A stretch of 64,000 bases of DNA from Nemertoderma westbladi. Taxonomy: Eukaryota; Animalia; Xenacoelomorpha. The notes beneath the pieces were generated by a model. That model was not told the DNA's origin and did not search any database. It saw only the letters and a list, made by a program, of their open reading frames with translations. The translations under genes were made by a program, and so were the position numbers. Position 1 is the first letter of the stretch, and every line of letters starts with the position of its first letter. The DNA lies in the NCBI GenBank assembly GCA_032718475.1, contig JAUCBJ010002774.1, positions 2,359 through 66,358 on the forward strand, given 5' to 3'. Below, in pieces: positions 7,231-64,000 of this stretch.

Positions 7231-8151
7231 GTAAACTCTATTTTGGAACTGTTATTAAATAAATCTATATTTTTCTAAAATACGACAAGAAAAAATAACA
7301 AACAAATTAATTAAATACAATAATAACGTACACTGATGTGTACCGGTACCAAACAAGAAAAAATATGAATATATGATGAATGAATATAATAGTTGTTGTT
7401 AGCTGTATCAATATTATTATTCACAGTGGTTCTTGAAATCATTAAAACGTTTTGAATTTAAATTTTAGTCCTTGAATTAATGTATTCTAATTATTATTTT
7501 AAATATTGTCACTGTGTAATAATATTAATAATCACTGCTAACACTACTTGCAGAGACGAAGAAGAGTAAATGGGTTGCACAACATGAATGGGCATACAAT
7601 CCTTCCTGGCTTCTACACGGCTATTTCTGCGTTTACTATTAATGAATAGTAATAATACTCCAATTTATATATTTCAAATTGAATTTAAAATATATATTTT
7701 CATATTTTTTTTTATTGTTTAGCTTCTTGCTCCGTTTCCAGTTTGAGTATATTTTTTTGACCAACATATTCGATTTTGTTGCCAAATAGGGTACTATGAA
7801 TAATTATTGGACCTATTGAAAATTGTGAGTTAAATTTTCGTTTTTTTTTTTCAATTTATTTTACAGCTAAATGTTAAGTCAAGGAATTCCTCTCATAAAA
7901 TATAATAATAATACGGTGTAAACTAACTTTATACCGGTTCGCAAATCCCACCTTGGAGAATTAGTATCTCTCCTCAATGTTAACTTGTCAATAATATTGT
8001 CAATAATTAACATATTGCAATACCTAGATATTACTTAAACACTATATTAATTATTATTATTATTACTATTATTAATTATCTGTTGTTATTAACTACAACA
8101 CGTATTATTCAATAATACAATCCTAATTGAAGAAGCTTTTAATTATTTTAG

Positions 8152-8322
8152 ATTACATTGTATGCGGTACCGATTCAGGACGAATATCTATTCTAGAATA
8201 CGACGCTAAAAAGAATGTGTTTGAAAAAGTTCATCAAGAAACTTTCGGGAAAAGTGGCTGTCGACGAATTATTCCGGGACAACATCTGGCGGTCGATCCT
8301 AAAGGGAGAGCCTTGATGCTTG
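8152..8322 (+). CDS. SF3B3: SF3B3 coding exon 2
   Basis: ttttag| (D)[16 protein letters not shown]...[31 protein letters not shown]|gtaggt. Phases are compatible with the neighbouring exons. Confidence 0.97.
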
Positions 8323-15990: not shown

Positions 15991-16512
15991 CCTGCCTGCC
16001 AAGTACCTAACTGATCTAGACTTTGCTGATGACTTAGGAGTACTCTCAGAATCACTAGAGGGAGCCCAACGGCTCCTCAGCTCATTAGAACATGCTGCTT
16101 CTAGTGTTGGTCTTTTTATTAACTCCAGAAAGACCAAAATTTTGACAGTTAACTTTGAAAGTCCTCAGCAAGTCTCTGATCGGATGAGCATAAGCTCAAA
16201 GGATGGTATGCTTGAGCATGTGGATGACTTCTGTTACCTGGGATCATGGATCCGGAAAGTCAGGCGAGGACCTTCGAATACGTAAGGGAAAGGCATGGGC
16301 AGCCTTAAATAGGCTTTCCAGGATTTGGAAGTCACCGAGAATTAATCGGAAACTTAAGGTCCGGTTATTTAGAGCAGCAGTAGTTCCAGTACTCCTCTAT
16401 GGGAGTCTATGCTGGGCTCTAACTGCTGAGGACACCAAATCTCTGGATGGCACATTCACAAGAATGCTACGCCGGGTTCATTGTGCCAAGTTCAATGCAC
16501 ACATCTCCAACA
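15991..16512 (+). mobile_element. Internal fragment of the RTE LINE family found at 31269-33268, with no 3' tail
   Basis: Near-identical to the reverse complement of ~31600-32117 (PAKYLTDLDFADD...HISN). One extra A at ccggaaagtc causes a frameshift. Confidence 0.9.
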
Positions 16513-17249
16513 TGGTGGGGTACATGCACATGGCAGGTGTGGTACGTGTTAGATGTGGTACCTGGTAGGTGTGGTACATGGTAGGTGTGGTACTTGGTAG
16601 GTGTAGTACATGGTAGGTGTGGTACATGGTAGGTGTGGTACCTGGTAGGTGTGGTACATGGTAGGTGTGGTACATGGTAGGTGTGGTACATGGTAGGTGT
16701 GGTACATTGTAGGTGTGGTACCTGGTATATAGGTGTGGTACATGGTTGGTGTGGTACATGGTAGGTGTGGTACTTGATAGGTGTGGTACTTGATAGGTGT
16801 GGTACTTGGTAGGTGTGGTACATAGCTGTGGTACAAAGATGTAGTACAGCTGGTAGGTGTTGTACCTTGTAGGTGTGGTATATGTAAGGTGTGGTACGTG
16901 TTGTTAGATGTGGTACCTGCCTGGTAGGTGTGATACATGTTATATGTGTTATATCAAAAGTCAGTATATATTTAATGATTTCAAGATAACTGGCAACATA
17001 TAAGAAACTTAGCAAACCAATGTGCTTCAAACCGCAACAAATTCTGTAATACACTGAAAGCAGAAGATAGGATGGAAATTCCTATGTCAAATGGGGACAA
17101 TCTAGTTGGTCATTATAAAAACCGTTTCAGTCTCTTAGATTATTGGGCCTTGGATAGGACTCTTAGATTGAATGATTTGAGAGATCTCCAATGTGTTTCA
17201 ATGCAAAAAGTTTCGATGTATAAAGTGCTATACTCACACCTCACTTCAC

Positions 17250-17920
17250 AATGGGAAGGCGGCTGACAGTGACTGTCTTACATCTGAACACTTATCATTC
17301 ACTTTCGGATGTTCGTCAGGGTGGGGTACTCTCCCCGTATCTCTTCAATATTAATTTATTGGAACTCTTTAGCACCTTAGAAAAATCCGGGCTGGGTTTA
17401 CATAGGACGAGAGGGATACCCTGCACTATGCTATGGCGATGACATTTTATTAATGGCGAACCTCAGGAGTAACATTGAAGAACAATTGAGGATATGCCAA
17501 AAATATTTTGGAGAATTTAACCTACTTCTTAGGTTAGAAAGGTCACGATTTGTGATCTGTACCGCGCAGTCAGCTGGGAGCACCAGTGAAGCAAATGACG
17601 GCCTGAAGTTCAACGATGATAAAGCCGCGATTCTGTCGGTTTTTCGGTCTGCCATTTCCGGCGACAAAGCAAAACATCATGGACCACTTTTTGCACAAAA
17701 TCCCGTCGAACGTAGCCAAAGTTAATACACGTGGCGAGAGTGTTGATTCTGTTCCTCTATCGATCTCATCATTAATCTGGCGTAAAGTCTGTGCTCCTTC
17801 AATTCTATATGGGGTCCCATTTTTATTATTAGAAACGTTGAGTAAGAAATGGCGCAAATCGATGCGATCATTATTGGTTGTTGGTAATTTTGTATCTAAT
17901 GAAACACTTTCCAATTTTTA
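17250..17920 (+). pseudogene. Degenerate non-LTR reverse transcriptase remnant
   Basis: VRQGGVLSPYLFN (RT domain 4) and later PSILYG, broken by frameshifts. Confidence 0.6.
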
Positions 17921-18508
17921 AGACTCGCAATTTCGATACACTCATATACATCATACCTATATGCGGACCATATACTCAGCTTTCAACTCTTCAAATAGAA
18001 AGATGACATTTGTATTCAGCTATCTACTTGTGCGACATATATAGCAGGTGTAATAAAAGATGAAAATGTTGGATGACTATGAGATTGGCGCTTTCAAACT
18101 CGGAGCGCCATGTTTACTCTCATTAGCAAACAATAGAAAATCTAATGTAAAATAAATTGTGAAAAATTTTCATCCACCAAGTTTATCTTTTCTAGATAAC
18201 TTTAATTGTTCATAATTTAAATTTAGTCCTAAATTATAGGACTCACTAAAAAATCTCACGAAATTCAAATATTGTTACAATTCTCAAAACTTTGATTTGA
18301 TATTAAAATACAGACAGATATAGGTTTTTGTAGAAAGATTCTCTGATTAACGCATTTCATAGGGAGTAAAACCCTTTGAAAGGTTGATGTTATTGTGTTT
18401 TTCGGTTAAACACAATATTCGGACATTTCGTCATAATTTACAACGTAGTTTCTAAACAATCTTTGAATAATAATTTATAAAAATAGTATATTGTATTAAC
18501 AATAATCA

Positions 18509-19420
18509 TGTATACCGACCCGTAATATAGTGTCATTTTCTGATGACACGGACACCCCCTAAATTTTTCTACAGATCTTTATCATATTGCATGAAATTTG
18601 AAACACCACTAGTTCAACTCACCGTGGTTGTTACCATGAAGCCGGAATTTTCGATTTCGCCTTTAAATTTTTTTATATAAGCGTTTTAAAAAAGTGTCTT
18701 TTGCGAAATTGCACATCTCCTATCATCGCCATTCTTCACATTAACCTCGCTTTATAGATATCATCAGAAAGCTTTCGTTACAAGGATTCCAAATATGTAA
18801 CAATGTCTAAATTTCGTTGTGAAAGAGCTGAGATATAGGCGTTCAAAGATTGCAAGAAGTATTGTTCGCTGCAAGCCATTTATTCTATTTAATAAATATA
18901 CGAAATTCTAGAACATGTTGTTTATTTTATGAGTTGGTTGGCAACAGCGGAATGCCTATACAATATATATATATTGTGTAGCTAATCATACATAAACAAA
19001 TTGTTCCAGAACATCGTGTATTTGTTAAATAGAATAAATGGCCTGTAGCGAACAATAATTCTTGCAATCTTTGAACGCCTATATTTCATCTGTTTCTCAA
19101 CGAAATTCAGACATTGTTACATATTTGGAATCCTTGGAACGCAAGCTTTCTAATGATATCTATAAAGTGAGGTTAATGTGAAGAATGGCTATGATAGAAG
19201 ATGTGCAATTTCGCAAAAGACCTCTTTTTAAAACGCTTATATAAAAAAAAATGTAAAGGCAAAATCGAAAATTCCGGCTTCATGTTAACAACCACGGTGA
19301 GTGGAACTAGTTGGGTTTCTAATTTCAAGCAATATGATAAAGATTTGTAGAAAAATCTGGGGGGGGGGGTGGTCCGTGTCATCAGAAAATGACACTATAT
19401 TACGGGTCGGTCGGTATACA
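18509..19420. mobile_element. ~910-bp foldback MITE with long TIRs (TA-flanked, possibly Tc1/mariner-derived)
   Basis: tgtataccgacccgtaatatagtgtcatttt ... aaaatgacactatattacgggtcggtcggtataca. Arms are complementary to ~18920/19000. A diverged partial copy lies at ~20870-21110. Confidence 0.85.
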
Positions 19421-20253
19421 ACCTGCAATTCATACAACGTTACTACAGTTAGGCGTACTGAAAGTTAAAGAATTGACTGAATTTCAGATATACTGCCCTC
19501 GTGTATGCCTTTTGAGTTTTGCACTCAGTGGCATTTTAAAATAACTATTTAACAGTAAAATAACTGGTAATAATTATTTACATACTTGTGTGTAAAGTAG
19601 CACTTTACAGTGTGATGATCCGAGTAGCTTTGTTACAAGAACGAACGTTAGTGAGTGAGTGAAAATAAAGCAACGAGGATCAGAACACTGTAAAGTACTT
19701 TGCAACACGTATGTATGTAGTTTTATTCCAAAATTTTAACATTACGAAATGATTGTACATATACATTATAAGTGATAGAAACTGCACAAATTATATTAGT
19801 TGCTGTATAAATAAATGTAAAAATGACATAAATTATGTTATAAATAAGTTAGCTTATATTTATGGTGGCGTTTGGAGCCATGTTATAATAATATAGCTAG
19901 GCCCTACTGGTTATTAATAGCTATATCCCGCCTACCGGTAGGTAATGTAGTAGGCCTATCTGGCTGTCAGTCAAATTTCCACCTATTGTTTACGTGGTAT
20001 CAAATGACGGCGTTAAGTAATGTCCCCTTAGTGGATATTACTTAACGCCGTCATGGGTTACCACGTAAACAATAACACCAAATACAATACTAAATGAACA
20101 GGCCAATACAATGCTGTAATTTCCTCTAAAGTTGTAAAGTCTCTTTGTTTTCATTTTTATAATTAATTATGCCAGTCATTAATGTTGTTTTATATTTAAT
20201 TCGCGCTCTACCTGTGTTTAGTGTTTTGATTATAATCAACGTTGTCTCTGTAG

Positions 20254-20426
20254 GCGCAGTTGAGAAACAGAAACTCGTCTACATATTGAATCGCGATAGC
20301 GAGGCGAGATTGACAATCTCCTCGCCCCTGGAGGCCCATAAAGCCAATACCATCATCTACTTTACTCTGGGGGTAGATGTTGGGTTCGACAATCCAACGT
20401 TCGCCACTCTCGAGATGGACTATGAG
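20254..20426 (+). CDS. SF3B3: SF3B3 coding exon 3
   Basis: tgtag| (G)[31 protein letters not shown]...LEMDYE |gtgagt. Confidence 0.97.
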
Positions 20427-20580
20427 GTGAGTTCTGTATTTCACTTTTCACTTTATGTGCATTCGTTTTAGTATCTGGCTCTCTCACTCGCTTTGTTTCA
20501 ATCCGGCATCATTCCTGTTCGAGAATGTGTAAAATGTACGGTAATGTCGTTATTATTACAACAAAACACTATTTTAAATA

Positions 20581-20837
20581 CGTTCGTGAGGTCTTCGCGC
20601 AGCACGATACTCCATACGTACCATGTTTGGTTTAATTTCCGCAATGATTGACCGACTTATTTTGGATTTTATCAAAAGCCTGAACTACCAGTTCCGACGG
20701 ACAGACTGTCTGACTATGACTGTCACGGACTACATACACAAAGTTTGGTTTGAATGACTGGTTTATTGGCGCTATCCAAAAGTAGACCGTTAATGGTACT
20801 CCTATGCTAAGACTGCGCTCACTTCGTGGCTCGCCCC
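20581..20837 (+). mobile_element. Short copy of the hairpin-ended non-autonomous element
   Basis: Left end cgttcgtgaggtcttcgcgcagcacga and right end cacttcgtggctcgcccc, the same ends as 60393-61942. Confidence 0.75.
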
Positions 20838-22450
20838 ACAATCTTTACTAATCGTTTGTATACCCATGGATTTAAATGAGACATAATGCCTCGCACAGAA
20901 TGAAACTTTCGAACACCAATATCTCAGCTGTCTTTCAAAGAAATTCAGATTGTGTTACATATGTGGAATCCTTGCACGGTCAGCTTTCTAATAGTGCCAA
21001 CAAATCACTAATTAAGTTTAAGAATACCGGCGCTGTAACTATGGTACAATATCGACGGAGACACTTTTTTAAACGCTTGTAGCTAAAGAATGAAAGCAAA
21101 AATATAAATTCTGGCTCACCAATGTCACACTAATGAATGATTCAAACTATATTTTGCTTCTTTTTCATTAAAAAGTTGGCATTGTATTCAACTCGTAGAT
21201 TGTATTACTGTACGATACTTTGGTATCTAAGAACTTTTAGGGTTTTATTTAGTTGGTAATAGTGAACGTGACATTCTGCTGCCCCCATAATCTAATGACT
21301 GTCCTGGGCGAAATCATATTAATGCCGTCCATTAGCAGACAATAATACATCATTAATAATAATATTGTAAACCAAGGAATATTATCGAATATATTATTTA
21401 TTACACGTCAAGGTTGTCTCTTTCGTGCACTCACTACTCCTCTCAACAGAACACCATGGTTTAATAAAATTACATCAAGCCGCTCTTGATGGAAACCGGT
21501 CTTGGGGGGGGGGGGGGGGGGGGGGTCACACAGATTGAGTTTAACGTAATTATAAAATTTTGATGCAATCTTCGGAGAAGTTTAACACTTTAACTCTTTT
21601 GTGGTTTGACATAAGGGTTTACTTTGTCGTGGCTTGTGGTGACAGCGGTTATAAACCATTAGTATTTTGCCATATTACATTCCGATGCATAACCGCAGAA
21701 TTTGAAAATGTGGAATTTTGTAAAACAAAATATTATCACTTTTTTATTTTAATTTTGAAAATTGAAATTCCTTTATTATTGTAGAAAAATGAAGAATGGA
21801 TGGAAAAATTAACCGCATTTCTCGACCGCGTAGTCGAAAAAATCTTCATTTTATTTGTACATCGCGTTTATTATATACACCTTTTAGTCTCCGGTGCGTA
21901 TAATATAAAAAAAACTAAAATTATGTCCCTTTAATATAAAAAACCTGACGCGTCCAAAAAGTAGCATCAAAAAATGAAACGCCTCAGAATAACAAATGCT
22001 AACAAAAATCCGGCTGAATCAACAAAATGATTCGCCAATTGGCAGGTGTTTACGGTTTAATTCACGGAATCTGACGTCTGTATGCGATAGAACAACGCCT
22101 GACAATGAACATGTTGTCCCTCGTGAGATTCTATTTTCTGTAACAACATGTTATCAGTTAGTATCGATCATCCTTCAGTAATTTTTACAACCCAAATATG
22201 ATGATATACAGCCTCGAAGCAACCATCGCGGTTCGCGGCACCGCCCAATTACCCCAAATTCCAAAGAGAATCTGTCAAGCAGAAGTCGCTTGTCAAATCA
22301 ATTCTACATCCGCGTAAATAATCGAACTACCAAACCCCTTCAGTAATATTAATTACGGTGATACTGCTTTCGGGCACTTGATGAATAAAACACGGTTTAA
22401 TGTTAATTCCTGAAATCATAACACCTGATGTTGTGGATATGTGAACGTAT

Positions 22451-22683
22451 GGGGCGAGCCACGATTGGGGAGTGGGTGGGCCTTTAGCGTAGCGGTATCA
22501 TTAGTAAACCGTGTGTCGTTGTCATTGTGTCATCTGCGTCATTGTCGGAAATTTGTTAACACGATTTACTCTGTCAACTTTTAACGAAATTAAATAAGGG
22601 AAAGTTTATATTTATATTAAAATTATATTGGGCGGACGAATACGAGTTTGCACGTCTCGTGTTGCGCGATGGCCCCACGAACG
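22451..22683 (-). mobile_element. Short copy of the hairpin-ended element in reverse orientation
   Basis: ggggcgagccacga at 22451 and tcgtgttgcgcgatggccccacgaacg ending at 22683. Confidence 0.7.
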
Positions 22684-22941
22684 TGTTGGATTGATAAATG
22701 TATCCGAGACTCCGGATCAATAATTTGTTTAAGTCGTTTAACATTTTTCGATATATTCAATACTAAAGATATCTTTTCTTAACAAAATATTTTATTTTGG
22801 CGTAATTTGTTGTTGGTTATATATTTAGTGTATTTTAATGTTAACTAACATTATTTTAGCTCCTAGAGTCAATTTTTTTTAATTTTAAACTATTTAATTA
22901 AATAATTACTGACTGGATTATTTCTTTATTTGATTATTCAG

Positions 22942-23089
22942 GAAGCTGATAACGATCCATCTGGTGACGCAGCCCAGGTCAGCCAACAGAGTCTAACTTT
23001 CTACGAGTTAGATCTCGGACTCAATCACGTAGTCAGAAAGTACAGCGAGTTGTTGGAAGAACGGGGGAATATGTTGATAGCAGTACCAG
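22942..23089 (+). CDS. SF3B3: SF3B3 coding exon 4
   Basis: ttcag| EADNDPSGDAAQVSQQSLTFYELDLGLNHVVRKYSELLEERGNMLIAVP G|gtgagt. Confidence 0.97.
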
Positions 23090-26000
23090 GTGAGTGAGTG
23101 TGGGAGAACGGGGGAATATGTTGGTAGCAGTACCAGGTGAGTGAGTGAGTGTGGGAGAACGGGGGAATAAGTTGGTAGCAGTACCAGGTGAGTGATTGTG
23201 GGAGAACGGGGGAATATGTTGGTAGCAGTACCAGGTGAGTGATTGTGGGAGAACGGGGGAATATGTTGGTAGCAGTACCAGGTGAGTGAGTGTGGGAGAA
23301 CGGGGGAATATGTTGGTAGCAGTACCAGGTGAGTGATTGTGGGAGAACGGGGGAATATGTTGATAGCAGTACCGGGTGAGTGAGTGTGGGAGATGGGGGA
23401 ATATGTTGATAGCAGTACCAGGTGAGTGATTGTGGGAGAACGGGGGAATATGTTGGTAGCAGTACCGGGTGAGTGAGTGTGGGAGAACGGGGGAATATGT
23501 TGATAGTAGTACCAGGTGAGTGAGTGTGGGAGACGGGGGAATATGTTGGTAGCAGTACCGGGTGAGTGAGTGTGGGAGAACGGGGGAATATGTTGATAGC
23601 CAGTACCAGGTGAGTGAGTGTGGGAGAACGGGGTAATATGTTGATAGCAGTACCAGGTGAGTGAGTGAGTGTGGGAGAACGGGGGAATATGTTAGGTAGC
23701 AGTACCAGGTGAGTGAGTGTGGGAGAACGGGGTAATATGTTGATAGCAGTACCAGGTGAGTGAGTGAGTGTGGGAGAACGGGGGAATATGTTAGATAGCA
23801 GTACCGGGTGAGTGAGTGTGGGAGACGGGGGAATATGTTGGTAGCAGTACCAGGTGAGTGATTGTGGGAGAACGGGGGAATATGTTGATAGCCAGTACCA
23901 GGTGAGTGAGTGTGGGAGAACGGGGGAATATGTTGATAGCAGTACCGGGTGAGTGAGTGTGGGAGATGGGGGAATATGTTGATAGCAGTACCAGGTGAGT
24001 GATTGTGGGAGAACGGGGGAATATGTTGGTAGCAGTACCAGGTGAGTGATTGTGGGAGAACGGGGGAATATGTTGATAGCAGTACCGGGTGAGTGAGTGT
24101 GGGAGATGGGGGAATATGTTGATAGCAGTACCAGGTGAGTGAGTGAGTGTGGGAGAACGGGGGAATATGTTAGGTAGCAGTACCAGGTGAGTGAGTGTGG
24201 GAGAACGGGGTAATATGTTGATAGCAGTACCAGGTGAGTGAGTGTGGGAGAACGGGGGAATATGTTGATAGCAGTACCGGGTGAGTGAGTGTGGGAGATG
24301 GGGGAATATGTTGATAGCAGTACCAGGTGAGTGAGTGAGTGTGGGAGAACGGGGGAATATGTTAGGTAGCAGTACCAGGTGAGTGAGTGTGGGAGAACGG
24401 GGTAATATGTTGATAGCAGTACCAGGTGAGTGAGTGAGTGTGGGAGAACGGGGGAATATGTTAGATAGCAGTACCGGGTGAGTGAGTGTGGGAGACGGGG
24501 GAATATGTTGGTAGCAGTACCAGGTGAGTGATTGTGGGAGAACGGGGGAATATGTTGATAGCCAGTACCAGGTGAGTGAGTGTGGGAGAACGGGGTAATA
24601 TGTTGATAGCAGTACCAGGTGAGTGAGTGAGTGTGGGAGAACGGGGGAATATGTTAGATAGCAGTACCGGGTGAGTGAGTGTGGGAGAACGGGGGAATAT
24701 GTTAGATAGCAGTACCAGGTGAGTGAGTGTGGGAGAACGGGGGAATATGTTAGGTAGCAGTACCAGGTGAGTGAGTGTGGGAGAACGGGGGAATATGTTG
24801 GTAGCAGTACCGGGTGAGTGAGTGTGGGAGAACGGGGGAATATGTTGTAGCAGTACCAGGTGAGTGAGTGTGGGAGAACGGGGGAATATGTTAGGTAGCA
24901 GTACCAGGTGAGTGAGTGTGGGAGAACGGGGGAATATGTTGGTAGCAGTACCGGGTGAGTGAGTGTGGGAGAACGGGGGAATATGTTAGATAGCAGTACC
25001 AGGTGAGTGAGTGTGGGAGAACGGGGGAATATGTTAGATAGCAGTACCAGGTGAGTGAGTGTGGGAGAACGGGGGAATATGTTAGGTAGCAGTACCAGGT
25101 GAGTGAGTGTGGGAGAACGGGGGAATATGTTGGTAGCAGTACCGGGTGAGTGAGTGTGGGAGAACGGGGGAATATGTTGTAGCAGTACCAGGTGAGTGAG
25201 TGTGGGAGACGGGGGAATATGTTGGTAGCAGTGCCAGGTGAGTGAGTGTGGGAGAACGGGGTAATATGTTGATAGCAGTACCAGGTGAGTGAGTGAGTGT
25301 GGGAGAACGGGGTAATATGTTGATAGTAGTACCAGGTGAGTGAGTGAGTGTGGGAGAACGGGGGAATATGTTAGGTAGCAGTACCAGGTGAGTGAGTGTG
25401 GGAGAACGGGGTAATATGTTGATAGCAGTACCAGGTGAGTGAGTGAGTGTGGGAGAACGGGGGAATATGTTGATAGCAGTGCCAGGTGAGTGAGTGTGGG
25501 AGAACGGGGAATATGTTGGTAGCAGTACCAGGTGAGTGATTGTGGGAGAACGGGGGAATATGTTGGTAGCAGTACCAGGTGAGTGATTGTGGGAGAACGG
25601 GGGAATATGTTGGTAGCAGTACCAGGTGAGTGATTGTGGGAGAACGGGGGAATATGTTGATAGCAGTACCGGGTGAGTGAGTGTGGGAGATGGGGGAATA
25701 TGTTGATAGCAGTACCAGGTGAGTGAGTGAGTGTGGGAGAACGGGGGAATATGTTAGGTAGCAGTACCAGGTGAGTGAGTGTGGGAGAACGGGGTAATAT
25801 GTTGATAGCAGTACCAGGTGAGTGAGTGAGTGTGGGAGAACGGGGGAATATGTTAGATAGCAGTACCGGGTGAGTGAGTGTGGGAGACGGGGGAATATGT
25901 TGGTAGCAGTACCAGGTGAGTGATTGTGGGAGAACGGGGGAATATGTTGATAGCCAGTACCAGGTGAGTGAGTGTGGGAGAACGGGGTAATATGTTGATA

Positions 26001-29000
26001 GCAGTACCAGGTGAGTGAGTGAGTGTGGGAGAACGGGGGAATATGTTAGATAGCAGTACCGGGTGAGTGAGTGTGGGAGAACGGGGGAATATGTTAGATA
26101 GCAGTACCAGGTGAGTGAGTGTGGGAGAACGGGGGAATATGTTAGGTAGCAGTACCAGGTGAGTGAGTGTGGGAGAACGGGGGAATATGTTGGTAGCAGT
26201 ACCGGGTGAGTGAGTGTGGGAGAACGGGGGAATATGTTGTAGCAGTCCAGGTGAGTGAGTGTGGGAGACGGGGGAATATGTTGGTAGCAGTGCCAGGTGA
26301 GTGAGTGTGGGAGACGGGGGAATATGTTAGATAGCAGTACCAGGTGAGTGAGTGTGGGAGGCGGGGGAATATGTTAGGTAGCAGTACCGGGTGAGTGAGT
26401 GTGGGAGAGCGGGGAATATGTTGGTAGCAGTACCGGGTGAGTGAGTGTGGGAGAACGGGGGAATATGTTAAGTAGCAGTACCGGGTGAGTGAGTGTGGGA
26501 GAACGGGGGAATATGTTAGGTAGCAGTACCGGGTGAGTGAGTGTGGGAGAACGGGGAATATGTTGGTAGCAGTACCGGGTGAGTGAGTGTGGGAGAACGG
26601 GGGAATATGTTAAGTAGCAGTACCGGGTGAGTGAGTGTGGGAGAACGGGGGAATATGTTAGGTAGCAGTACCGGGTGAGTGAGTGTGGGAGAACGGGGAA
26701 TATGTTGGTAGCAGTACCGGGTGAGTGAGTGTGGGAGACGGGGGAATATGTTGATAGCGGTACCAGGTGGGTGAGTGTGGGAGACGGGGGAATATGTTGG
26801 TAGCAGTACCAGGTGAGTGAGTGTGGGAGACGGGGGAATATGTTGATAGCAATACCGGGTGAGTGAGTGTGGGAGAACGGGGGAATATGTTAGATAGCAA
26901 TACCAGGTGAGTGAGTGTGGGAGACGGGGGAATATGTTGGTAGCAGTACCAGGTGAGTGAGTGTGGGAGATGGGGGAATATGTTAGATAGCAGTACCGGG
27001 TGAGTGAGTGTGGGAGACGGGGGAATATGTTAGGTAGCAGTACCGGGTGAGTGAGTGTGGGAGAACGGGGGAATATGTTAGATAGCAGTACCAGGTGAGT
27101 GAGTGTGGGAGAACGGGGGAATATGTTGATAGCAGTGCCAGGTGAGTGAGTGTGGGAGAACGGGGGAATATGTTAGGTAGCAGTACCGGGTGAGTGAGTG
27201 TGGGAGAACGGGGGAATATGTTAGATAGCAGTACCAGGTGAGTGAGTGTGGGAGAACGGGGGAATATGTTGATAGCAGTGCCAGGTGAGTGAGTGTGGGA
27301 GGACGGGGGAATATGTTAGATAGCAATACCAGGTGAGTGAGTGTGGGGGACGGGGGAATATGTTGGTAGCAGTACCGGGTGAGTGAGTGTGGGAGAACGG
27401 GGGAATATGTTAGATAGCAATACCAGGTGAGTGAGTGTGGGAGACGGGGGAATATGTTGGTAGCAGTACCAGGTGAGTGAGTGTGGGAGATGGGGGAATA
27501 TGTTAGATAGCAGTACCGGGTGAGTGAGTGTGGGAGACGGGGGAATATGTTAGGTAGCAGTACCGGGTGAGTGAGTGTGGGAGAACGGGGGAATATGTTA
27601 GATAGCAGTACCAGGTGAGTGAGTGTGGGAGAACGGGGGAATATGTTGATAGCAGTGCCAGGTGAGTGAGTGTGGGAGAACGGGGGAATATGTTAGGTAG
27701 CAGTACCGGGTGAGTGAGTGTGGGAGAACGGGGGAATATGTTAGATAGCAGTACCAGGTGAGTGAGTGTGGGAGAACGGGGGAATATGTTGATAGCAGTA
27801 CCAGGTGAGTGAGTGAGTGTGGGAGAACGGGGTAATATGTTGATAGCAGTACCAGGTGAGTGAGTGAGTGTGGGAGAACGGGGGAATATGTTAGGTAGCA
27901 GTACCAGGTGAGTGAGTGTGGGAGAACGGGGTAATATGTTGATAGCAGTACCAGGTGAGTGAGTGAGTGTGGGAGAACGGGGGAATATGTTAGATAGCAG
28001 TACCGGGTGAGTGAGTGTGGGAGAACGGGGGAATATGTTGGTAGCAGTACCAGGTGAGTGATTGTGGGAGAACGGGGGAATATGTTGGTAGCAGTACCAG
28101 GTGAGTGATTGTGGGAGAACGGGGGAATATGTTGATAGCAGTACCGGGTGAGTGAGTGTGGGAGATGGGGGAATATGTTGATAGCAGTACCAGGTGAGTG
28201 AGTGAGTGTGGGAGAACGGGGGAATATGTTAGGTAGCAGTACCAGGTGAGTGAGTGTGGGAGAACGGGGTAATATGTTGATAGCAGTACCAGGTGAGTGA
28301 GTGAGTGTGGGAGAACGGGGGAATATGTTAGATAGCAGTACCGGGTGAGTGAGTGTGGGAGAACGGGGGAATATGTTAGATAGCAGTACCAGGTGAGTGA
28401 GTGTGGGAGAACGGGGGAATATGTTAGGTAGCAGTACCAGGTGAGTGAGTGTGGGAGAACGGGGGAATATGTTGGTAGCAGTACCGGGTGAGTGAGTGTG
28501 GGAGAACGGGGGAATATGTTGTAGCAGTCCAGGTGAGTGAGTGTGGGAGACGGGGGAATATGTTGGTAGCAGTGCCAGGTGAGTGAGTGTGGGAGACGGG
28601 GGAATATGTTAGATAGCAGTACCAGGTGAGTGAGTGTGGGAGGCGGGGGAATATGTTAGGTAGCAGTACCGGGTGAGTGAGTGTGGGAGAACGGGGAATA
28701 TGTTGGTAGCAGTACCGGGTGAGTGAGTGTGGGAGAACGGGGGAATATGTTAAGTAGCAGTACCGGGTGAGTGAGTGTGGGAGAACGGGGGAATATGTTA
28801 GGTAGCAGTACCGGGTGAGTGAGTGTGGGAGAACGGGGAATATGTTGGTAGCAGTACCGGGTGAGTGAGTGTGGGAGAACGGGGGAATATGTTAAGTAGC
28901 AGTACCGGGTGAGTGAGTGTGGGAGAACGGGGGAATATGTTAGGTAGCAGTACCGGGTGAGTGAGTGTGGGAGAACGGGGAATATGTTGGTAGCAGTACC

Positions 29001-32000
29001 GGGTGAGTGAGTGTGGGAGACGGGGGAATATGTTGGTAGCAGTACCAGGTGAGTGAGTGTGGGAGACGGGGGAATATGTTGATAGCAATACCGGGTGAGT
29101 GAGTGTGGGAGAACGGGGGAATATGTTAGATAGCAATACCAGGTGAGTGAGTGTGGGATACGGGGGAATATGTTGGTAGCAGTACCAGGTGAGTGAGTGT
29201 GGGAGATGGGGGAATATGTTAGATAGCAGTACCGGGTGAGTGAGTGTGGGAGACGGGGGAATATGTTAGGTAGCAGTACCGGGTGAGTGAGTGTGGGAGA
29301 ACGGGGGAATATGTTAGATAGCAGTACCAGGTGAGTGAGTGTGGGAGAACGGGGGAATATGTTGATAGCAGTGCCAGGTGAGTGAGTGTGGGAGAACGGG
29401 GGAATATGTTAGGTAGCAGTACCGGGTGAGTGAGTGTGGGAGAACGGGGGAATATGTTAGATAGCAGTACCAGGTGAGTGAGTGTGGGAGAACGGGGGAA
29501 TATGTTGATAGCAGTGCCAGGTGAGTGAGTGTGGGAGGACGGGGGAATATGTTAGATAGCAATACCAGGTGAGTGAGTGTGGGGGACGGGGGAATATGTT
29601 GGTAGCAGTACCGGGTGAGTGAGTGTGGGAGAACGGGGGAATATGTTAGATAGCAATACCAGGTGAGTGAGTGTGTGAGAACGGGGGAATATGTTGATAG
29701 CAGTGCCAGGTGAGTGAGTGTGGGAGATGGGGGAATATGTTAGATAGCAGTACCGGGTGAGTGAGTGTGGGAGACGGGGGAATATGTTAGGTAGCAGTAC
29801 CGGGTGAGTGAGTGTGGGAGAACGGGGGAATATGTTAGATAGCAGTACCGGGTGAGTGAGTGTGGGAGACGGGGGAATATGTTAGGTAGCAGTACCGGGT
29901 GAGTGAGTGTGGGAGAACGGGGGAATATGTTAGATAGCAGTACCAGGTGAGTGAGTGTGGGAGAACGGGGGAATATGTTGATAGCAGTGCCAGGTGAGTG
30001 AGTGTGGGAGAACGGGGGAATATGTTAGGTAGCAGTACCGGGTGAGTGAGTGTGGGAGAACGGGGGAATATGTTAGATAGCAGTACCAGGTGAGTGAGTG
30101 TGGGAGAACGGGGGAATATGTTGATAGCAGTGCCAGGTGAGTGAGTGTGGGAGGACGGGGGAATATGTTAGATAGCAATACCAGGTGAGTGAGTGTGGGG
30201 GACGGGGGAATATGTTGGTAGCAGTACCAGGTGAGTGAGTGTGGGAGACGGGGGAATATGTTGATAGCAGTACCAGGTGAGTGAGTGTGGGAGAACGGGG
30301 GAATATGTTGGTAGCAGTACCATGTGAGTGAGTGTGGGAGAACGGGGGAATATGTTGATAGCAGTACCAGGTGGGTGAGTGTGGGAGAACGGGGTAATAT
30401 GTTGATAGCAGCACCAGGTGAGTGAGTGAGTGTGGGAGAACGGGGGAATATGTTAGATAGCAGTACCGGGTGAGTGAGTGTGGGAGAACGGGGGAATATG
30501 TTAGATAGCAGTACCAGGTGAGTGAGTGTGGGAGAACGGGGGAATATGTTGATAGCAGTACCAGGTGAGTGAGTGTGGGAGAACGGGGTAATATGTTGAT
30601 AGCAGTACCAGGTGAGTGAGTGAGGGTGGGAGAACGGGGGAATATGTTAGATAGCAGTACCGGGTGAGTGAGTGTGGGAGAACGGGGGAATATGTTAGAT
30701 AGCAGTACCAGGTGAGGGAGAACGGGGGAATATGTTGATATCAGTACCAGGTGAGTGAGTGTGGGAGAACGGGGGAATATGTTAGGTAGCAGTACCGGGT
30801 GAGTGAGTGTGGGAGAACGGGGGAATATGTTAGATAGCAGTACCAGGTGAGTGAGTGTGGGAGAACGGGTGAATATGTTGATAGCAGTACCAGGTGAGTG
30901 AGTGTGGGAGGACGGGGGAATATGTTAGATAGCAATACCAGGTGAGTGAGTGTGGGGGACGGGGGAATATGTTGGTAGCAGTACCAGGTGAGTGAGTGTG
31001 GGAGATGGGGGAATATGTTGGTAGCAGTACCAGGTGAGTGAGTGTGGGAGAACGGGGGAATATGTTGGTAGCAGTACCAGGTGAGTGAGTGTGAGAGAAC
31101 GGGGGAATATGTTGATAGCAGTACCAGGTGAGTGAGTGTGGGAGACGGGGGAATATGTTGGTAGCAGTACCAGGTGAGTGAGTGAGTGTGGGAGAACGGG
31201 GGAATATGTTGGTAGCAGTACCGGGTGAGTGAGTGTGGGAGAACGGGGGAATATGTTGGTAGCAGTACTACTACTACTAGGATCGGCATGCTGCATTGCA
31301 GCTGCATTTTTAAGAATGCTGTGCCGGCTTGTCAACAAAATTGCACCGCCACAACTCCCTATCACCCATGACATTTGCTAGATCATCCGCATCTTTAAGG
31401 CCAGTGTCCTTTAAGATGCGTCTCAAGAAAGTCATGGGCTGTCCACCATGCTTATTCACTCCATGAGGCTGCCAAAGTACAAGATTATGCACTGGCTGGT
31501 CCTCACGGCGAAAGCAATGTCCTGCAAAGCGGAGGCGATTTTGTTCTAGTGTCAAGCTTGGGGGAACCAATGAGACACCTCCAATGTTATATAGTGTCTG
31601 GTTGGAGATGTGTGCATTGTACTTGACACAATGTACCCGGCGTAGCATTCTTGTGAATGTGCCATCCAGAGATTTGGTGTCCTCAGCAGTTAGAGCCCAG
31701 CATGGACTCCCGTAGAGGAGTACTGGAACTACTGCTGCTCTAAATAATCGGACCTTAAGTTTCCGATTAATTCTAGGTGACTTCCAAATCCTGGAAAGCC
31801 TATTCAAGGCTGCCCATGCCTTTCCCTTACGTATTCGAAGGTCCTCACCTGACTTCCGGATCCATGATCCCAGGTAACAGAAGTCGTCCACATGCTCAAG
31901 CATACCATCCTTTGAGCTTATGCTCATCCGATCAGAGACTTGCTGAGGACTTTCAAAGTTAACTGTCAGAATTTTGGTCTTTCTGGAGTTAATAAAAAGA

Positions 32001-34450
32001 CCAACACTAGAAGCAGCATGTTCTAATGAGCTGAGGAGCCGCTGGGCTCCCTCTAATGATTCTGAGAGTACTCCTAAGTCATCAGCAAAGTCTAGATCAG
32101 TTAGGTACTTGGCAGGATTTCCTCGACTTCTGGAGCCAGTAGGTGGAGTTATCATCACCCCATCATCATTATGATGATCTAAGGACATGCGTAGAACATA
32201 GTCAACCACAATAATGAACAAGAATGGTGCAAGTGTGTCTCCTTGGAGGACGCCCCATAACACTTCAAATGGTTCTGTGTCACCGTCAACAGTAGACACA
32301 AATGTTGTCGAACCATCGTATACTGATCTGATTGCTGCAATAATTTCATCAGGAATCCCATATAATGAAAGTATGCTGAACATACGTGAGCGAGAGACTG
32401 AATCAAAGGCCTTGAAGAAGTCAACAAAGATAACAGCCAGATGCCTGTCTTTCTTTTTTGATAACTCTTCAATTATCCTTCTAAGTGCCAAAATGGGCTC
32501 CATGGTCCCACGACCTTTACGGAACCCATTCTGATTTCCACGTAGCAGTCTCTCAATGGGATCTCTGATGCGATTTAATAGAATTCTATTGTATAGTTTT
32601 GCAGCAATCGAGATCAATGAGATTCCCCGAAAAGAACCATAGAGTGTTAGGTTGCCCTTCTTGGGAACTGGCACCAACTTATTTGTTTTCATTTCTTGTG
32701 GGACTCTTGTTGTACGGTACATGTCTACTATGATGGGATAGATGAGCTTTAAACACTCAGGTATTTTAAAGACCTCAGGGGGAACACCATCTACTCCACT
32801 GGCACGATTGGTCTTAATGCTCTTTGCAGCAGCCTTCACTTCTGCAAAGGAGATATCGCCAATGGGAATATCTGGGAGTACAGACTCAGACACTTTTACT
32901 TCTATAAAGTTATCAGGCAATACCCTGTCATTATTGAGGAGCTTTTCAAAGTGGGCTTTCCAACCATTAAGGCGATCGGCTGGTGATTCAGCCTTAACCT
33001 TGGTGGTTGGTTGGCTTTTCCGCCCAGTAAGCAGATTGATCGATTTCCATGCCTGGGATGATTGCCTGCTGTCGTCAGCATCATTGATGGCATCAACCTG
33101 TTGGTTTATTAGCTCCTGTAGATTAACAGAGTACTGCCTGTTCAGGGACCTAGATGCAGCTTTAACTGTATTCTTGGCCGCTGTAGTCTGTTTGAGTCGG
33201 GACTCTTTCTGCGCCTTATGAAGGTCATTTCGGCACTTCTGAATTTTTTTTTGAATTTTTGGAATAACTTGGTAGCAGTACCAGGTGAGTGAGTGTGGGA
33301 GATGGGGGAATATGTTGGTAGCAGTACCAGGTGAGTGAGTGTGGGAGACGGGGGAATATGTTGGTAGCAGTACCAGGTGAGTGAGTGTGGGAGAACGGGG
33401 GAATATGTTGATAGCAGTACCGGGTGAGTGAGTGTGGGAGATGGGGGAATATGTTGGTAGCAGTACCAGGTGAGTGAGTGTGGGAGAACGGGGGAATATG
33501 TTGATAGCAGTACCAGGTGAGTGAGTGTGGGAGACGGGGGAATATGTTGGTAGCAGTACCAGATGAGTGAGTGTGGGAGATGGGGGAATATGTTGGTAGC
33601 AGTAGCAGGTGAGTGAGTGTGGGAGAACGGGGGAATATGTTGATAGCAGTACCAGGTGAGTGAGTGTGGGAGAACGGGGGAATATGTTGATAGCAATACC
33701 GGGTGAGTGAGTGTGGGAGAACGGGGGAATATGTTGGTACCAGTACCGGGTGAGTGAGTGTGGGAGAACGGGGGAATATGTTGGTAGCAATACCGGGTGA
33801 GTGAGTGTGGGAGAACGGGGGAATATGTTGGTAGCAATACCGGGTGAGTGAGTGTGGGAGAACGGGGGAATATGTTGGTAGCAATACCGGGTGAGTGAGT
33901 GTGGGAGAACGGGGGAATATGTTGGTAGCAATACCGGGTGAGTGAGTGTGGGAGAACGTGGGAATATGTTGGTAGCAGTACCAGGTGAGTGAGTGTGGGA
34001 GACGGGGGAATATGTTAGATAGCAGTACCAGGTGAGTGAGTGTGGGAGAACGGGGGAATATGTTAGATAGCAGTACCAGGTGAGTGAGTGTGGGAGAACG
34101 TGGGAATATGTTGGTAGCAGTACCAGGTGAGTGAGTGTGGGAGAACGGAGGAATATGTTGATAGCAGTACCAGGTGAGTGAGTGTGGGAGACGGGGGAAT
34201 ATGTTAGATAGCAGTACCAGGTGAGTGAGTGTGGTAGAACGGAGGAATATGTTGATAGCAGTACCAGGTGAGTGAGTGTGGGAGAACGGGGGAATATGTT
34301 AGATAGCAGTACCAGGTGAGTGAGTGTGGGAGAACGGGGGAATATGTTGGTAGCAGTACCGGGTGAGTGAGTGTGGGAGAACGGGGGAATATGTTGATAG
34401 CAGTACCGGGTGAGTGAGTGTGGGAGAACGGGGGAATATGTTGATAGCAG
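23058..34450 (+). repeat. 47-bp minisatellite (~200 copies) made of the last 32 nt of SF3B3 exon 4 plus the first 15 nt of intron 4; interrupted by an RTE LINE
   Basis: Unit AGAACGGGGGAATATGTTGATAGCAGTACCAG|GTGAGTGAGTGTGGG with 46-51-bp variants. The first copy is the real exon end. Confidence 0.97.
31269..33268 (-). mobile_element. 5'-truncated RTE-clade LINE with an uninterrupted RT frame and a (TAG)n tail
   Basis: QNGFRKGRG, FVDFFKAFDSV, GVLQGDTLAPFLF, LDFADD, RLRFAGHC; stop at 31310. Tail tactactacta. 13-bp TSD TTGGTAGCAGTAC at 31256-31268 and 33269-33281. Confidence 0.92.
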
Positions 34451-34784
34451 CCGTAACGGGAAAAATTGAATTTACGCAATGACTATCATTTATTTAAATA
34501 GTTTGTTAACTATGTTTTATAATTTGATGTAATAATGTTCATTATAACTGTTGTTATCGAGAAGGTAAATAAAGTGTTTTATTTACTGTAAAATATGCAA
34601 TTTTATTGGTAAATTTTAAATAACCTTGGTTCCCCCCGTTAAACAACTATGAGTTACAGAGTCAGCGATAAATTAAATTATATAATTTTCAGTCTATCTT
34701 ATATTAAGTCTGTATAATTTCGCGCTGTGCCATAAGGTCAGCGGTAAATTCGGTATATTTGATCATTTTTTTTCACCGATTTAG

Positions 34785-34891
34785 GCGGAGGCGATGGTCC
34801 CAGTGGGGTTCTTATCGGAGCGGAGAACTACATCACTTACAAAAACTTTGGCGACCAGCCAGATATCCGGATGCCAATACCTAGACGGCGG
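34785..34891 (+). CDS. SF3B3: SF3B3 coding exon 5
   Basis: tttag| (G)GGDGPSGVLIGAENYITYKNFGDQPDIRMPIPRRR |gttagt. Missed by the ORF track. Confidence 0.96.
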
Positions 34892-34937
34892 GTTAGTTTG
34901 TAGTTAAATACCTGGACGATGGATTAGTTTGTAGTTA
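34876..34937 (+). repeat. Two-copy 31-bp tandem duplication spanning the exon 5 donor
   Basis: aatacctagacggcgg|gttagtttgtagtta followed by aatacctggacgatgg|attagtttgtagtta (27/31 identical). Confidence 0.85.
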
Positions 34938-35082
34938 GATTCTTATTATACAAAATAGCTTGAAAGTCTCAAAAGTTCTTTACATTAAATTTATTTACCG
35001 TATACAGTTGCGCGTGATCCTATATTTTGACCACCACAAATAAAATGACGTCATCTATTTGATTTTTTTTTCTACCGTCCAG

Positions 35083-35179
35083 AATGATTTGGATGACCCC
35101 GACAGAGGAATGCTATTCGTTTCCTCGGCAACCCATAAAACCAAAGCCATGTTCTTTCTTCTGCTGCAAACTGAGCAAG
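35083..35179 (+). CDS. SF3B3: SF3B3 coding exon 6
   Basis: tccag| NDLDDPDRGMLFVSSATHKTKAMFFLLLQTEQ G|gttagt. Confidence 0.96.
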
Positions 35180-62480: not shown

Positions 62481-62673
62481 TTAGAAAGATGTTTGCGCGA
62501 AGTACAACAAAACAGATAGATATTGGTTTTCTGTAGTTTAACTCCTATCAAACTTATATCATCATAAATATTAATAATAATTTAATGTAATATCATAATT
62601 TTTCTTGAGCATTGAGCAATGCAATAGCCGGAGTTAAAAACGTCATAAATATTTGTAAACCGAAATATTTCAG

Positions 62674-62818
62674 GTGATATATTCAAAATTACTATGGAGG
62701 TTGATGAAGACATGGTCACTGAGATTAAGATGAAATACTTCGACACGGTACCGGTTGCTACTTCCATGTCTGTACTTAAAACTGGTTTCTTATTTATCGC
62801 ATCGGAATTCGGAAATCA
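62674..62818 (+). CDS. SF3B3: SF3B3 coding exon 7 (gene continues beyond the window)
   Basis: tttcag| (G)DIFKITMEVDEDMVTEIKMKYFDTVPVATSMSVLKTGFLFIASEFGN CA|gtaagt. Confidence 0.97.
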
Positions 62819-62824
62819 GTAAGT

Positions 62825-64000
62825 CCAGTTGTTCCTTATACTTCCAGTTATTTGTACCAGTTGTTCCTTATACTTCCAGTTATTTGTACCAGTTGTTTCT
62901 TTTACTTCCAGTTATTTGTACCAGTTGTTCCTTATACTTCCAGTTTTTTGTACCAATTGTTCCTTATACTTCCAGTTATTTGTACCAGTTGTTCCTTATA
63001 CTTCCAGTTATTTGTACCAGTTGTTCCTTTTACTTCCAGTTATTTGTACCAGTTGTTCCTTATACTTCCAGTTATTTGTACCAGTTGTTTCTTTTACTTC
63101 CAGTTATTTGTACCACTTGTTTCTTTTACTTCCAGTTATTTGTACCAGTTGTTTCTTTTACTTCCAGTTATTTGTACCAGTTGTTTCTTTTACTTCCAGT
63201 TATTTGTACCAGTTGTTTCTTTTACTTCCAGTTATTTGTACCAGTTGTTCCTTATACTTCCAGTTATTTGTACCAGTTGTTTCTTTTACTTCCAGTTATT
63301 TGTACCAGTTGTTTCTTTTACTTCCAGTTATTTGTACCAGTTGTTTCTTTTACTTCCAGTTATTTGTACCAGTTGTTTCTTTTACTTCCAGTTATTTGTA
63401 CCAGTTGTTTCTTTTACTTCCAGTTATTTGTACCAGTTGTTTCTTTTACTTCCAGTTATTTGTACCAGTTGTTTCTTTTACTTCCAGTTATTTGTACCAG
63501 TTGTTCCTTATACTTCCAGTTTTTTGTACCAGTTGTTCCTTATACTTCCAGTTATTTGTACCAGTTGTTCCTTATACTTCCAGTTATTTGTACCAGTTGT
63601 TCCTTATACTTCCAGTTATTTGTACCAGTTGTTCCTTTTACTTCCAGTTATTTGTACCACTTGTTCCTTATACTTCCAGTTATTTGTACCAGTTGTTCCT
63701 TATACTTCCAGTTATTTGTACCAGTTGTTCCTTTTACTTTCAGTTATTTGTACCAGTTGTTCCTTATACTTCCAGTTATTTGTACCAGTTGTTCCTTTTA
63801 CTTCCAGTTATTTTTACCAGTTGTTCCTTATACTTCCAGTTATTTGTACCAGTTGTTCCTTATACTTCCAGTTATTTGTACCAGTTGTTCCTTTTACTTC
63901 CAGTTATTTGTACCAATTTTTCCTTATACTTCCAGTTATTTGTACCAGTTGTTCCTTATACTTCCAGTTATTTGTACCAGTTGTTTCTTTTACTTCCAGT
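62825..64000 (+). repeat. 32-bp minisatellite (at least 36 copies, running off the window) made of a 3' splice site plus the first 13 nt of the next SF3B3 exon
   Basis: Unit ttgttccttatacttccag|TTATTTGTACCAG. Exon 7 CA plus T TAT TTG TAC CAG gives H-Y-L-Y-Q, the conserved SF3B3 continuation FGNHYLYQ. Confidence 0.93.

What the first reader, a model, noticed from the sequence alone, without database searches (positions are those of the whole stretch)
62819..64000. Intron built almost entirely from copies of its own 3' splice site plus the next exon's first 13 nt
Seen: six bases after the start of the donor (gtaagt) the array begins, and each unit is polypyrimidine-CAG|T TAT TTG TAC CAG. Established: SF3B3 continues FGN-HYLYQ, exactly what this junction encodes. 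With one unit the intron would be only 29 nt, and CCAG microhomology (gtccag/gtaccag) bounds the unit. The unit has no stop in any plus frame, so acceptors 3n units early give in-frame 32-aa insertions. Inference: the last of at least 36 near-identical acceptors must be selected by exon definition, with the branch point inside a repeat. This occurs in a gene for a branch-site-recognition (SF3b) subunit, so autoregulation is conceivable.
Basis: partly seen in the sequence, partly recalled or inferred. Interest (0 to 1): 0.88.

Follow-up and report, generated by a model that had tools for sequence, protein, structure and literature searches.

The report
Repeated splice acceptor in SF3B3 intron
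An intron of an invertebrate's splicing-factor gene (SF3B3) begins with at least 36 head-to-tail copies of a 32-base piece that carries the start of the next exon and its likely splice signal, yet an intron-free contig, likely messenger RNA, joins the two exons with none of the copies, so it is most likely a harmless "mirage" repeat of a kind already known from lancelets.

Summary
The array is real: 32-bp units, 36.8 copies, 96% alike, from donor +7 of SF3B3 intron 7 to the window end. DNA runs of two samples carry the donor-to-repeat junction. An intron-free contig (run X4, likely mRNA) joins exon 7 directly to exon 8, which reads YLYQIAHLG, with no repeat unit. So the unit copies the start of exon 8, and the main transcript ignores the decoys. 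Corrections: the match is 12 nt, not 13 (Gln is CAA); the microhomology is CCA; most units hold a second AG at -20; a stop-free unit is unremarkable (P about 0.18). The array's far end lies outside the window and was not seen. The same gene has donor-spanning arrays at exons 2, 4 and 5. This fits the 'mirage' minisatellites of amphioxus (PMC3087553) and human F7/CBS boundary repeats; this scan has noted such arrays in several other genomes. Nothing supports autoregulation or 32-aa insertion isoforms. Verdict: new member of a known kind, interest 0.22. Still open: whether intron 7 was once a 29-nt microintron, and why arrays cluster at this gene's splice sites.

The parts
62674..62818 (+). SF3B3 exon 7 (145 nt), ends in the first two bases of the His codon of EFGNH
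   Evidence: tblastn and GT/AG fit; Pfam PF10433, E 1.8e-14; matched without difference by the X4 contig
62819..62824 (+). Intron 7 donor GTAAGT (phase 2; intron position shared with other species)
   Evidence: Sequence; X4 contig leaves the genome at 62818; 37 of 222 homologues read EFGNQ, the read-through expected of a CA|GT intron here
62825..64000 (+). 32-bp acceptor-spanning minisatellite, at least 36.8 copies, cut by the window end; unit = end of intron 7 plus start of exon 8, bounded by CCA
   Evidence: 12-nt identity with the exon 8 start in X4
62829..62859 (+). First decoy acceptor (AG at 62846-62847) followed by a 12-nt copy of the exon 8 start; use of it would mean a 29-nt intron
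   Evidence: DNA contigs of X2 (identical to the window) and X3 (4 other letters, 16 gap letters upstream) run from intron 6 to 62854
7005..35179 (+). SF3B3 exons 1-6: 7005-7230, 8152-8322, 20254-20426, 22942-23089, 34785-34891, 35083-35179; with exon 7 an open frame of 355 aa, about 81% identical to animal SF3B3
8321..16939 (+). 16-bp donor-anchored array starting at the exon 2 donor (unit -2 to +14; 183 GGTAGGT copies), split by two insertions
23054..34450 (+). 47-bp donor-spanning array = last 36 nt of exon 4 plus 11 nt of intron 4 (194 GGTGAGT copies), split by a reverse-transcriptase element; 334 nt of intron 4 is left once these are masked
34876..34937 (+). 31-bp two-copy duplication across the exon 5 donor (-16 to +15), 87% alike

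Best explanation
The array is a 'mirage'-type minisatellite: a 32-bp piece matching the start of SF3B3 exon 8 and its likely acceptor, probably duplicated at a CCA microhomology and amplified at the DNA level, and likely spliced out as plain intron with no function. Shown: the anatomy, the 12-nt identity with the exon 8 start, and an exon 7-exon 8 join free of repeat units in the one intron-free contig seen. Inferred: (1) a first duplication by slippage or microhomology repair, not through RNA, because the unit ends do not coincide with splice sites in any of the four junction arrays; (2) growth and homogenisation by slippage or unequal exchange; (3) choice of the authentic acceptor by exon definition, since only it is followed by the rest of exon 8 and that exon's donor, while the array holds no GT[AG]AG donor to pair with a decoy; (4) a branch A at -30 or -24 inside a repeat, if the array abuts exon 8, so that the second AG at -20 is too close to be used; (5) leaky decoy use would shift the frame two times in three and otherwise put a hydrophobic insert into the first beta-propeller, so it would be waste; (6) the array is flush with GTAAGT because the donor is the only constrained sequence on its left.
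For: X4 contig (3,536 nt, depth 662) matches exon 7 exactly; its loose ends are the exon 6 end and an exon 8 start reading YLYQIAHLG. DNA runs X2 (sample S2) and X1/X3 (sample S1, with other letters and indels upstream) carry the donor-to-repeat junction, and summed contig depth is far higher on the repeat than on the flank. Unit variants come in blocks (18 runs in 37 units, P=0.04 against 100,000 shuffles). No GT[AG]AG in the array. 126 of 126 complete homologue junctions have no insertion. 4 of 15 array families in the gene span start within -50..+10 of one of 7 donors. Amphioxus BflGb6 repeats the 3' end of an intron with the 5' part of the exon, Adh3 units are 10-72 bp, and splicing is reported as regular (PMC3087553, passages; PMC3902484, passages).
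Against: The far end of the array was not seen, so adjacency to exon 8 is inferred. X4 is recorded only as 'DNA?' and comes from another sample than the DNA runs, so it does not prove that an array-bearing allele splices cleanly. Contigs drop rare isoforms, so decoy use is not measured. The one-unit intron of 29 nt is far shorter than the shortest intron of this gene (191 nt) and needs either a deletion or a microintron ancestor. The clustering of arrays at splice sites is not explained by neutrality alone; PMC3087553 calls the generating mechanism unclear.
Confidence: 0.82

Rival explanations
1. Same kind of repeat, special history: intron 7 was a true 29-nt microintron, and amplification of its acceptor turned it into a long intron. 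This gene's introns were short and were inflated by junction repeats plus retroelements, which is why arrays sit at splice sites. This is a sub-case of the best explanation, not an alternative to it.
For: The array starts exactly after GTAAGT and one unit gives a complete GT...pyrimidine-CAG intron in the right frame. Intron 4 shrinks to 334 nt and intron 5 is 191 nt without arrays and insertions. Some animals have microintrons: a peak at 37 bp in a liver fluke and microintron fractions in other flatworms (PMC6530080, passages). The window's protein is a long branch drawn next to two flatworms.
Against: That tree placement has support 34 only, is a quick tree, and concerns a long branch. None of the six complete introns in this gene is under 191 nt; introns 2 and 6 keep 3.3 and 15.4 kb after masking. 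29 nt is below the 37-bp fluke peak. A deletion between the donor's CCA(G) and an array unit gives the same picture.
Confidence: 0.2
2. The array no longer touches exon 8: unique or inserted DNA lies between them and supplies the working branch point and acceptor, so the visible units are stranded decoys.
For: Two other junction arrays in this gene are split by insertions of 0.5-4.1 kb. The window ends inside the array. The unit differs from X4's exon 8 at base 13.
Against: The unit's 12-nt exon copy is preceded by a pyrimidine tract and CAG that score like the gene's real acceptors (rough score 4.3-6.8 against -2.1 to 4.9). High unit identity (96.5%) points to a young array still next to its source. 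An insertion inside the array would leave units on the exon side.
Confidence: 0.1
3. Functional decoy array: low SF3b fidelity or a change in its dose shifts splicing to upstream acceptors or to the AG at -20, giving frameshifted messages for decay or 32-aa (main AG, 3n units) or 17-aa-plus (second AG) insertions, and so autoregulates SF3B3.
For: The gene encodes an SF3b subunit. All 37 main AGs are intact and no plus frame has a stop. An AG about 20 nt upstream of the acceptor is the layout of SF3B1-sensitive cryptic acceptors (recalled, no call). Many splicing factors autoregulate by unproductive splicing (search listing and abstract starts).
Against: A stop-free unit has P about 0.18, and having no stop among the 8 distinct variants has P about 0.19. 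126 of 126 complete homologue junctions lack an insertion. Three donor arrays in the same gene and published arrays in globin, Adh3, troponin C, F7, CBS and ABCA7 show that no splicing-factor link is needed. A young, fast-turning array is unlike the conserved poison exons in the listing. I found no report of SF3B3 autoregulation in that listing (20 of 108 papers shown) or in the SF3B3 passages of PMC12427521.
Confidence: 0.04
4. Assembly artefact, or chance likeness between an unrelated satellite and the exon start.
For: Long tandem arrays are often mis-sized in assemblies; no listed contig spans the array.
Against: Two samples carry the donor-to-repeat junction and show raised depth on the repeat. 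Units differ in a patterned way. A 12-nt exact match in the right register behind a CAG has a chance of about 64 x 4^-12, or 4e-6 (my arithmetic).
Confidence: 0.02

Closest known systems
Amphioxus 'mirage' minisatellites: Adh3 (Canestro et al. 2002, not held, known to me only through citing papers), globins BflGb6 and BflGb9 (Ebner et al. 2010, PMC3087553, passages read), troponin C and PGBD5 (PMC3902484, passages read)
   Same: Head-to-tail copies of an intron-exon boundary; BflGb6 is acceptor-side like this one. The unit length lies in the Adh3 range (10-72 bp). Splice signals are kept in the copies, regular splicing is reported, and both 5' and 3' boundaries are hit.
   Different: More copies (at least 36, against 3-6 in BflGb6). 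The array starts flush with the upstream donor. Four junction arrays occur in one gene, about 26% of the gene span in the window (14,608 of 56,996 bp). The host is not placed with Branchiostoma in the tree. Length instability was not tested here.
Human boundary-spanning minisatellites: F7 IVS7 37-bp (5-9 copies), interferon-inducible 6-16, CBS intron 13, lamin B2, PDGF (PMC1557585: abstract, introduction and passages read); ABCA7 25-bp VNTR (PMC5954066, passages read)
   Same: A splice site is reiterated in the intron and the site next to the exon is used; neighbouring pseudo-sites are used in some cases (6-16, CBS, ABCA7). This gene's exon 2, 4 and 5 arrays are direct counterparts.
   Different: These repeat donors, whereas the intron 7 array repeats an acceptor, where branch point and AG choice also matter.
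Human CBS 844ins68 (PMC2630376, passages read)
   Same: A duplicated intron 7/exon 8 junction, where splicing to the distal copy removes the extra exon start and gives normal mRNA.
   Different: One 68-bp duplication, not an array.
Autoregulatory poison exons or unproductive splice sites of splicing-factor genes (search listing and abstract starts)
   Same: The host gene is a splicing factor, and decoy use would often shift the frame.
   Different: No conservation, no unproductive isoform seen, and no feedback shown.

Membership tests
Mirage minisatellite (PMC3087553) | Tandem head-to-tail duplication that spans an intron-exon boundary of the host gene | tested here: met
   32-bp period, 36.8 copies; the unit holds pyrimidine tract, CAG and the first 12 nt of exon 8 as seen in X4; not found elsewhere in the window
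Mirage minisatellite (PMC3087553) | Copies keep AG or GT splice signals | tested here: met
   37 of 37 main AGs intact; 33 units also hold the upstream AG
Mirage minisatellite (PMC3087553) | Minisatellite unit size (10-160 bp in the published cases) | tested here: met
   32 bp against 10-72 bp for Adh3
Mirage minisatellite (PMC3087553) | Regular splicing is not disturbed | tested here: met
   For the main form only: the X4 contig joins exon 7 to exon 8 with no unit; one run, contigs only, rare isoforms not measurable
Mirage minisatellite (PMC3087553) | Array lies against the authentic exon it copies | not testable with these tools
   The window ends inside the array; no genome held; no contig from array into exon 8 among the rows shown
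Mirage minisatellite (PMC3087553) | Length instability between haplotypes or cells | not testable with these tools
   Only short-read contigs; none spans the array
Mirage minisatellite (PMC3087553) | Homogenisation and local turnover of units | tested here: inconclusive
   96.5% mean identity; variant order blocky at P=0.04; one haplotype only
Recursive splice sites (AG|GT; definition recalled) | Acceptor AG directly followed by a GT donor | tested here: not met
   Both AGs of the unit are followed by TT; no GT[AG]AG in the array
Autoregulatory unproductive splicing of a splicing factor | An unproductive isoform is made and responds to the factor's level | not testable with these tools
   No raw RNA reads listed
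Autoregulatory unproductive splicing of a splicing factor | The regulatory element is conserved across species | not tested
   No close relative's gene was available; best protein identity 82%; no insertion isoform among 126 complete homologue junctions

The most novel reading that the evidence does not exclude
The acceptor array is a built-in sensor of SF3b fidelity. Each unit offers a main AG plus a second AG 20 nt upstream, so weakened branch-site proofreading diverts SF3B3 pre-mRNA to decoys and to decay, a feedback loop evolved from a minisatellite that grew out of a 29-nt microintron.
Probability: 0.04. Interest if true: 0.75.

Novelty: new member of a known kind. Interest (0 to 1): 0.22.

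Why it matters
As it stands, this is a large, clean example of a known repeat type. Its modest value is as a natural test of 3' splice-site choice among 37 or more near-identical acceptors, the acceptor-side mirror of the F7 donor model. It also offers a gene where four of seven introns begin with junction-anchored arrays, which bears on the open question of how mirage repeats are seeded (called unclear in PMC3087553) and whether they inflate short introns. It would matter much more only if decoy use proved to be regulated by SF3b.

Tried and rejected
Whole genome: none held, so exon 8's genomic position and the array's far end stay unseen. Sequencing runs: 6 listed, no RNA holder on record and no raw reads; this is no evidence on expression. 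X4 has no contig cover on 62820-62890; contigs drop rare forms, so this does not show that decoys are unused. The summed depths over the repeat (X1 1343 against 25.9 on the flank, X2 166 against 4.6, X3 729 against 9.9) are not copy numbers and were not used as such. Stop-free frames as a sign of coding function: rejected. Recursive splicing: rejected, no AG|GT. RNA-mediated origin (reinserted intron or lariat): unlikely, because unit ends fall at -2/+14, -36/+11, -16/+15 of the donors and across the acceptor, never at splice sites. Processed pseudogene as the source of the X4 contig: unlikely, because DNA-run depth is flat across the exon 7 border. Host phylum: quick tree of 44 rows (window protein, 30 named and 13 unnamed homologues chosen from the 120), long branch, no supported placement; the careful search did not finish. 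No identical protein turned up among the best 120 hits listed for exon 7 or exon 1. A nested minus-strand gene as seed of the 36680-40878 array: the candidate exon had no Pfam hit, no homologue and only Atlas hits under 0.9. My rough splice-site scan for nested exons returned 0 candidates with cut-offs that several of the gene's real sites would also miss, so it is uninformative. Literature searches; none listed a paper on this SF3B3 array. Canestro et al. 2002 is not held, and the supplements of PMC3087553 (BflGb6 alignments) were not opened; they could show how closely the published acceptor mirages match this layout. The scan holds no notes for this genome.

Full report
Gene context. tblastn with eight named homologues found seven exons of SF3B3 on the + strand. 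Fitting GT/AG ends gave 7005-7230, 8152-8322, 20254-20426, 22942-23089, 34785-34891, 35083-35179 and 62674-62818, an open frame of 355 aa about 81% identical to animal SF3B3. Exon 7 hits Pfam PF10433, the first beta-propeller. The organism is an animal of unresolved phylum: a quick tree shows a long branch with no supported placement. No genome is held.

The observation. Intron 7 opens with GTAAGT at 62819. The array starts at 62825 and runs off the window: period 32, 36.8 copies, 96% matches, 36 full units at 96.5% mean identity. Each unit has a pyrimidine tract and CAG followed by TTATTTGTACCA; 36 such acceptors were counted and a 37th ends at 63999. 33 units carry a second AG 20 nt upstream of the main one. 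One unit would make a 29-nt intron, and the junction would read FGNHYLYQ. The intron position is old: 37 of 222 homologues end or diverge at EFGNQ, the read-through expected of a CA|GT intron here (53 of the 222 lacked the motif and 6 diverge after YLYQ). The unit is not found elsewhere in the window.

Outside evidence. Four public runs hold part of the gene, and their contigs were laid on 62300-62890. X2 has a contig identical to the window from 62453 to 62854. X1 and X3 (one other sample, 4 other letters and 16 gap letters upstream) reach 62837 and 62854. So the donor-to-repeat junction exists in two samples, and summed depth rises steeply on the repeat. X4 has a 3,536-nt contig at depth 662 that matches exon 7 exactly, with the end of exon 6 before it and a sequence reading YLYQIAHLG behind it. 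X4 is recorded only as 'DNA?'. I read it as mRNA-derived because it lacks introns and the DNA runs show flat depth across the exon border. It also corrects two details: Gln is CAA, so unit and exon share 12 nt, and the microhomology is CCA. Limits: X4 is a third sample, contigs hide rare isoforms, and no contig from array into exon 8 was among the rows shown.

Testing the functional claims. No plus frame has a stop, but 18% of shuffled units are also stop-free, the chance that none of the 8 distinct variants makes a stop is about 0.19, and the unrelated 43-mer array in intron 6 has only 13 plus-strand stops in 112 units. In-frame decoys would be main AGs 3, 6, 9... units early, and also second AGs at k = 1, 4, 7.... 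All 126 homologues with a complete junction have the same spacing there, with no insertion. The array has no AG|GT and no GT[AG]AG, so it offers no recursive sites and no internal exons. A search on SF3B3 autoregulation (20 of 108 papers listed) and the SF3B3 passages of PMC12427521 gave no precedent; this was not exhaustive.

The wider pattern. The gene has three more junction arrays: a 16-mer from the exon 2 donor (183 donor-like copies), a 47-mer made of the last 36 nt of exon 4 and 11 nt of intron (194 copies), and a 31-bp duplication across the exon 5 donor. Together with the intron 7 array they make up 14,608 of 56,996 bp of the gene span. 4 of 15 array families start within -50..+10 of one of the 7 donors (binomial P 4e-6, or 1.2e-4 after masking arrays and insertions). 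I chose that window after seeing the data, the studied array is one of the four, and the null is too generous if the introns were short when the arrays were seeded; intron 4 keeps only 334 nt after masking. Unit ends never coincide with splice sites, which points to DNA-level duplication.

How it most likely works. A 32-bp piece across the exon 8 acceptor was duplicated at CCA and amplified; variant order is blocky (18 runs in 37 units, P=0.04), as local expansion predicts. Extra copies fall into the intron and are removed as long as the authentic acceptor is used, which exon definition favours because only that copy is followed by the rest of exon 8 and its donor (inferred). If the array abuts exon 8, the branch A should be at -30 or -24. 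The best-looking motif, at -42, would put the -20 AG in a position to be chosen first (inferred from the scanning rule, recalled; positions). The flush start after GTAAGT is either a deletion stopped by the donor or a former 29-nt microintron. Microintrons near 37 bp exist in flatworms (PMC6530080, passages), but this gene's shortest intron is 191 nt.

Comparison with what is known. I first found the human donor-side cases: F7, 6-16, CBS, lamin B2 and PDGF in PMC1557585 (abstract, introduction and passages), ABCA7 in PMC5954066 (passages), the acceptor-junction duplication CBS 844ins68 in PMC2630376 (passages), and repeats at exon-intron borders in PMC2812944 (passages). Earlier notes of this scan pointed to amphioxus 'mirages', which I checked. 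PMC3087553 (passages) describes tandem duplications of the 3' end of an intron with the 5' part of the exon in BflGb6, Adh3 units of 10-72 bp, regular splicing, length instability and an unclear generating mechanism. PMC3902484 (passages) adds troponin C and PGBD5. Four defining features were met here, one is inconclusive and two could not be tested. The scan's notes list similar arrays in annelid, urchin, mussel and elephant-shark-type genes, two of them splicing-factor genes; these are unchecked AI notes and are not counted as support.

Verdict. A real feature and a new member of a known kind. The acceptor-duplication reading is right in substance; the insertion-isoform and autoregulation ideas have no support and are left at about 4%. 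Interest 0.22.

Noticed in passing
window 36680-40878 and 40879-40979, minus strand: A 32-bp array (130 copies; 115 with GGTTAGTGAGT on the minus strand) starts at a GTTAGT directly after a 101-nt open, acceptor-bounded, exon-like stretch: possibly a donor mirage of a nested antisense gene in SF3B3 intron 6. No Pfam hit, homologue or Atlas hit of 0.9 or more.
   Followed up: partly
window 48457-53263: 43-bp AT-rich array (111 copies) that reads like a pyrimidine-rich CAG acceptor on the + strand and is nearly stop-free there (a stop-to-stop frame of 1334 codons). No exon was found at its ends.
   Followed up: partly
window 10256-14366: 4.1-kb insertion with a 1289-aa open frame (10342-14208) and an A-rich tail inside the 16-bp donor array. 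It looks like an intact non-LTR retroelement, but Pfam gave no family at E 0.001.
   Followed up: partly
window 31269-33260, 15985-16527, 55290-55520, 59333-60475: Reverse-transcriptase elements: one (PF00078) inserted in the 47-bp array on the minus strand, with 93-97% identical fragments in the 16-bp array and in intron 6; another RT frame at 59333-60475.
   Followed up: partly
window 42939-43138 and 43623-44091: Two 21-bp arrays in opposite orientation around a roughly 480-bp core, like the sub-terminal repeats of a foldback or MITE-type element.
   Followed up: no
window 3201-4358: Uninterrupted galactose-3-O-sulfotransferase frame upstream of SF3B3 (PF06990, E 2.6e-45).
   Followed up: partly
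window 62314-62481: High-copy dispersed repeat just upstream of exon 7 (summed contig depth above 100,000 in three DNA runs).
   Followed up: no
window 62954-62958 and 63914-63918: Two units carry CAA instead of CAG after the exon copy and so match X4's exon 8 for 13 nt; this could be exchange with the real exon or chance mutation.
   Followed up: no
proteins P0009, P0010, P0046, P0059, P0061, P0062: Six unnamed homologues diverge right after HYLYQ, suggesting a different intron position 13 nt further on in some other lineage.
   Followed up: no
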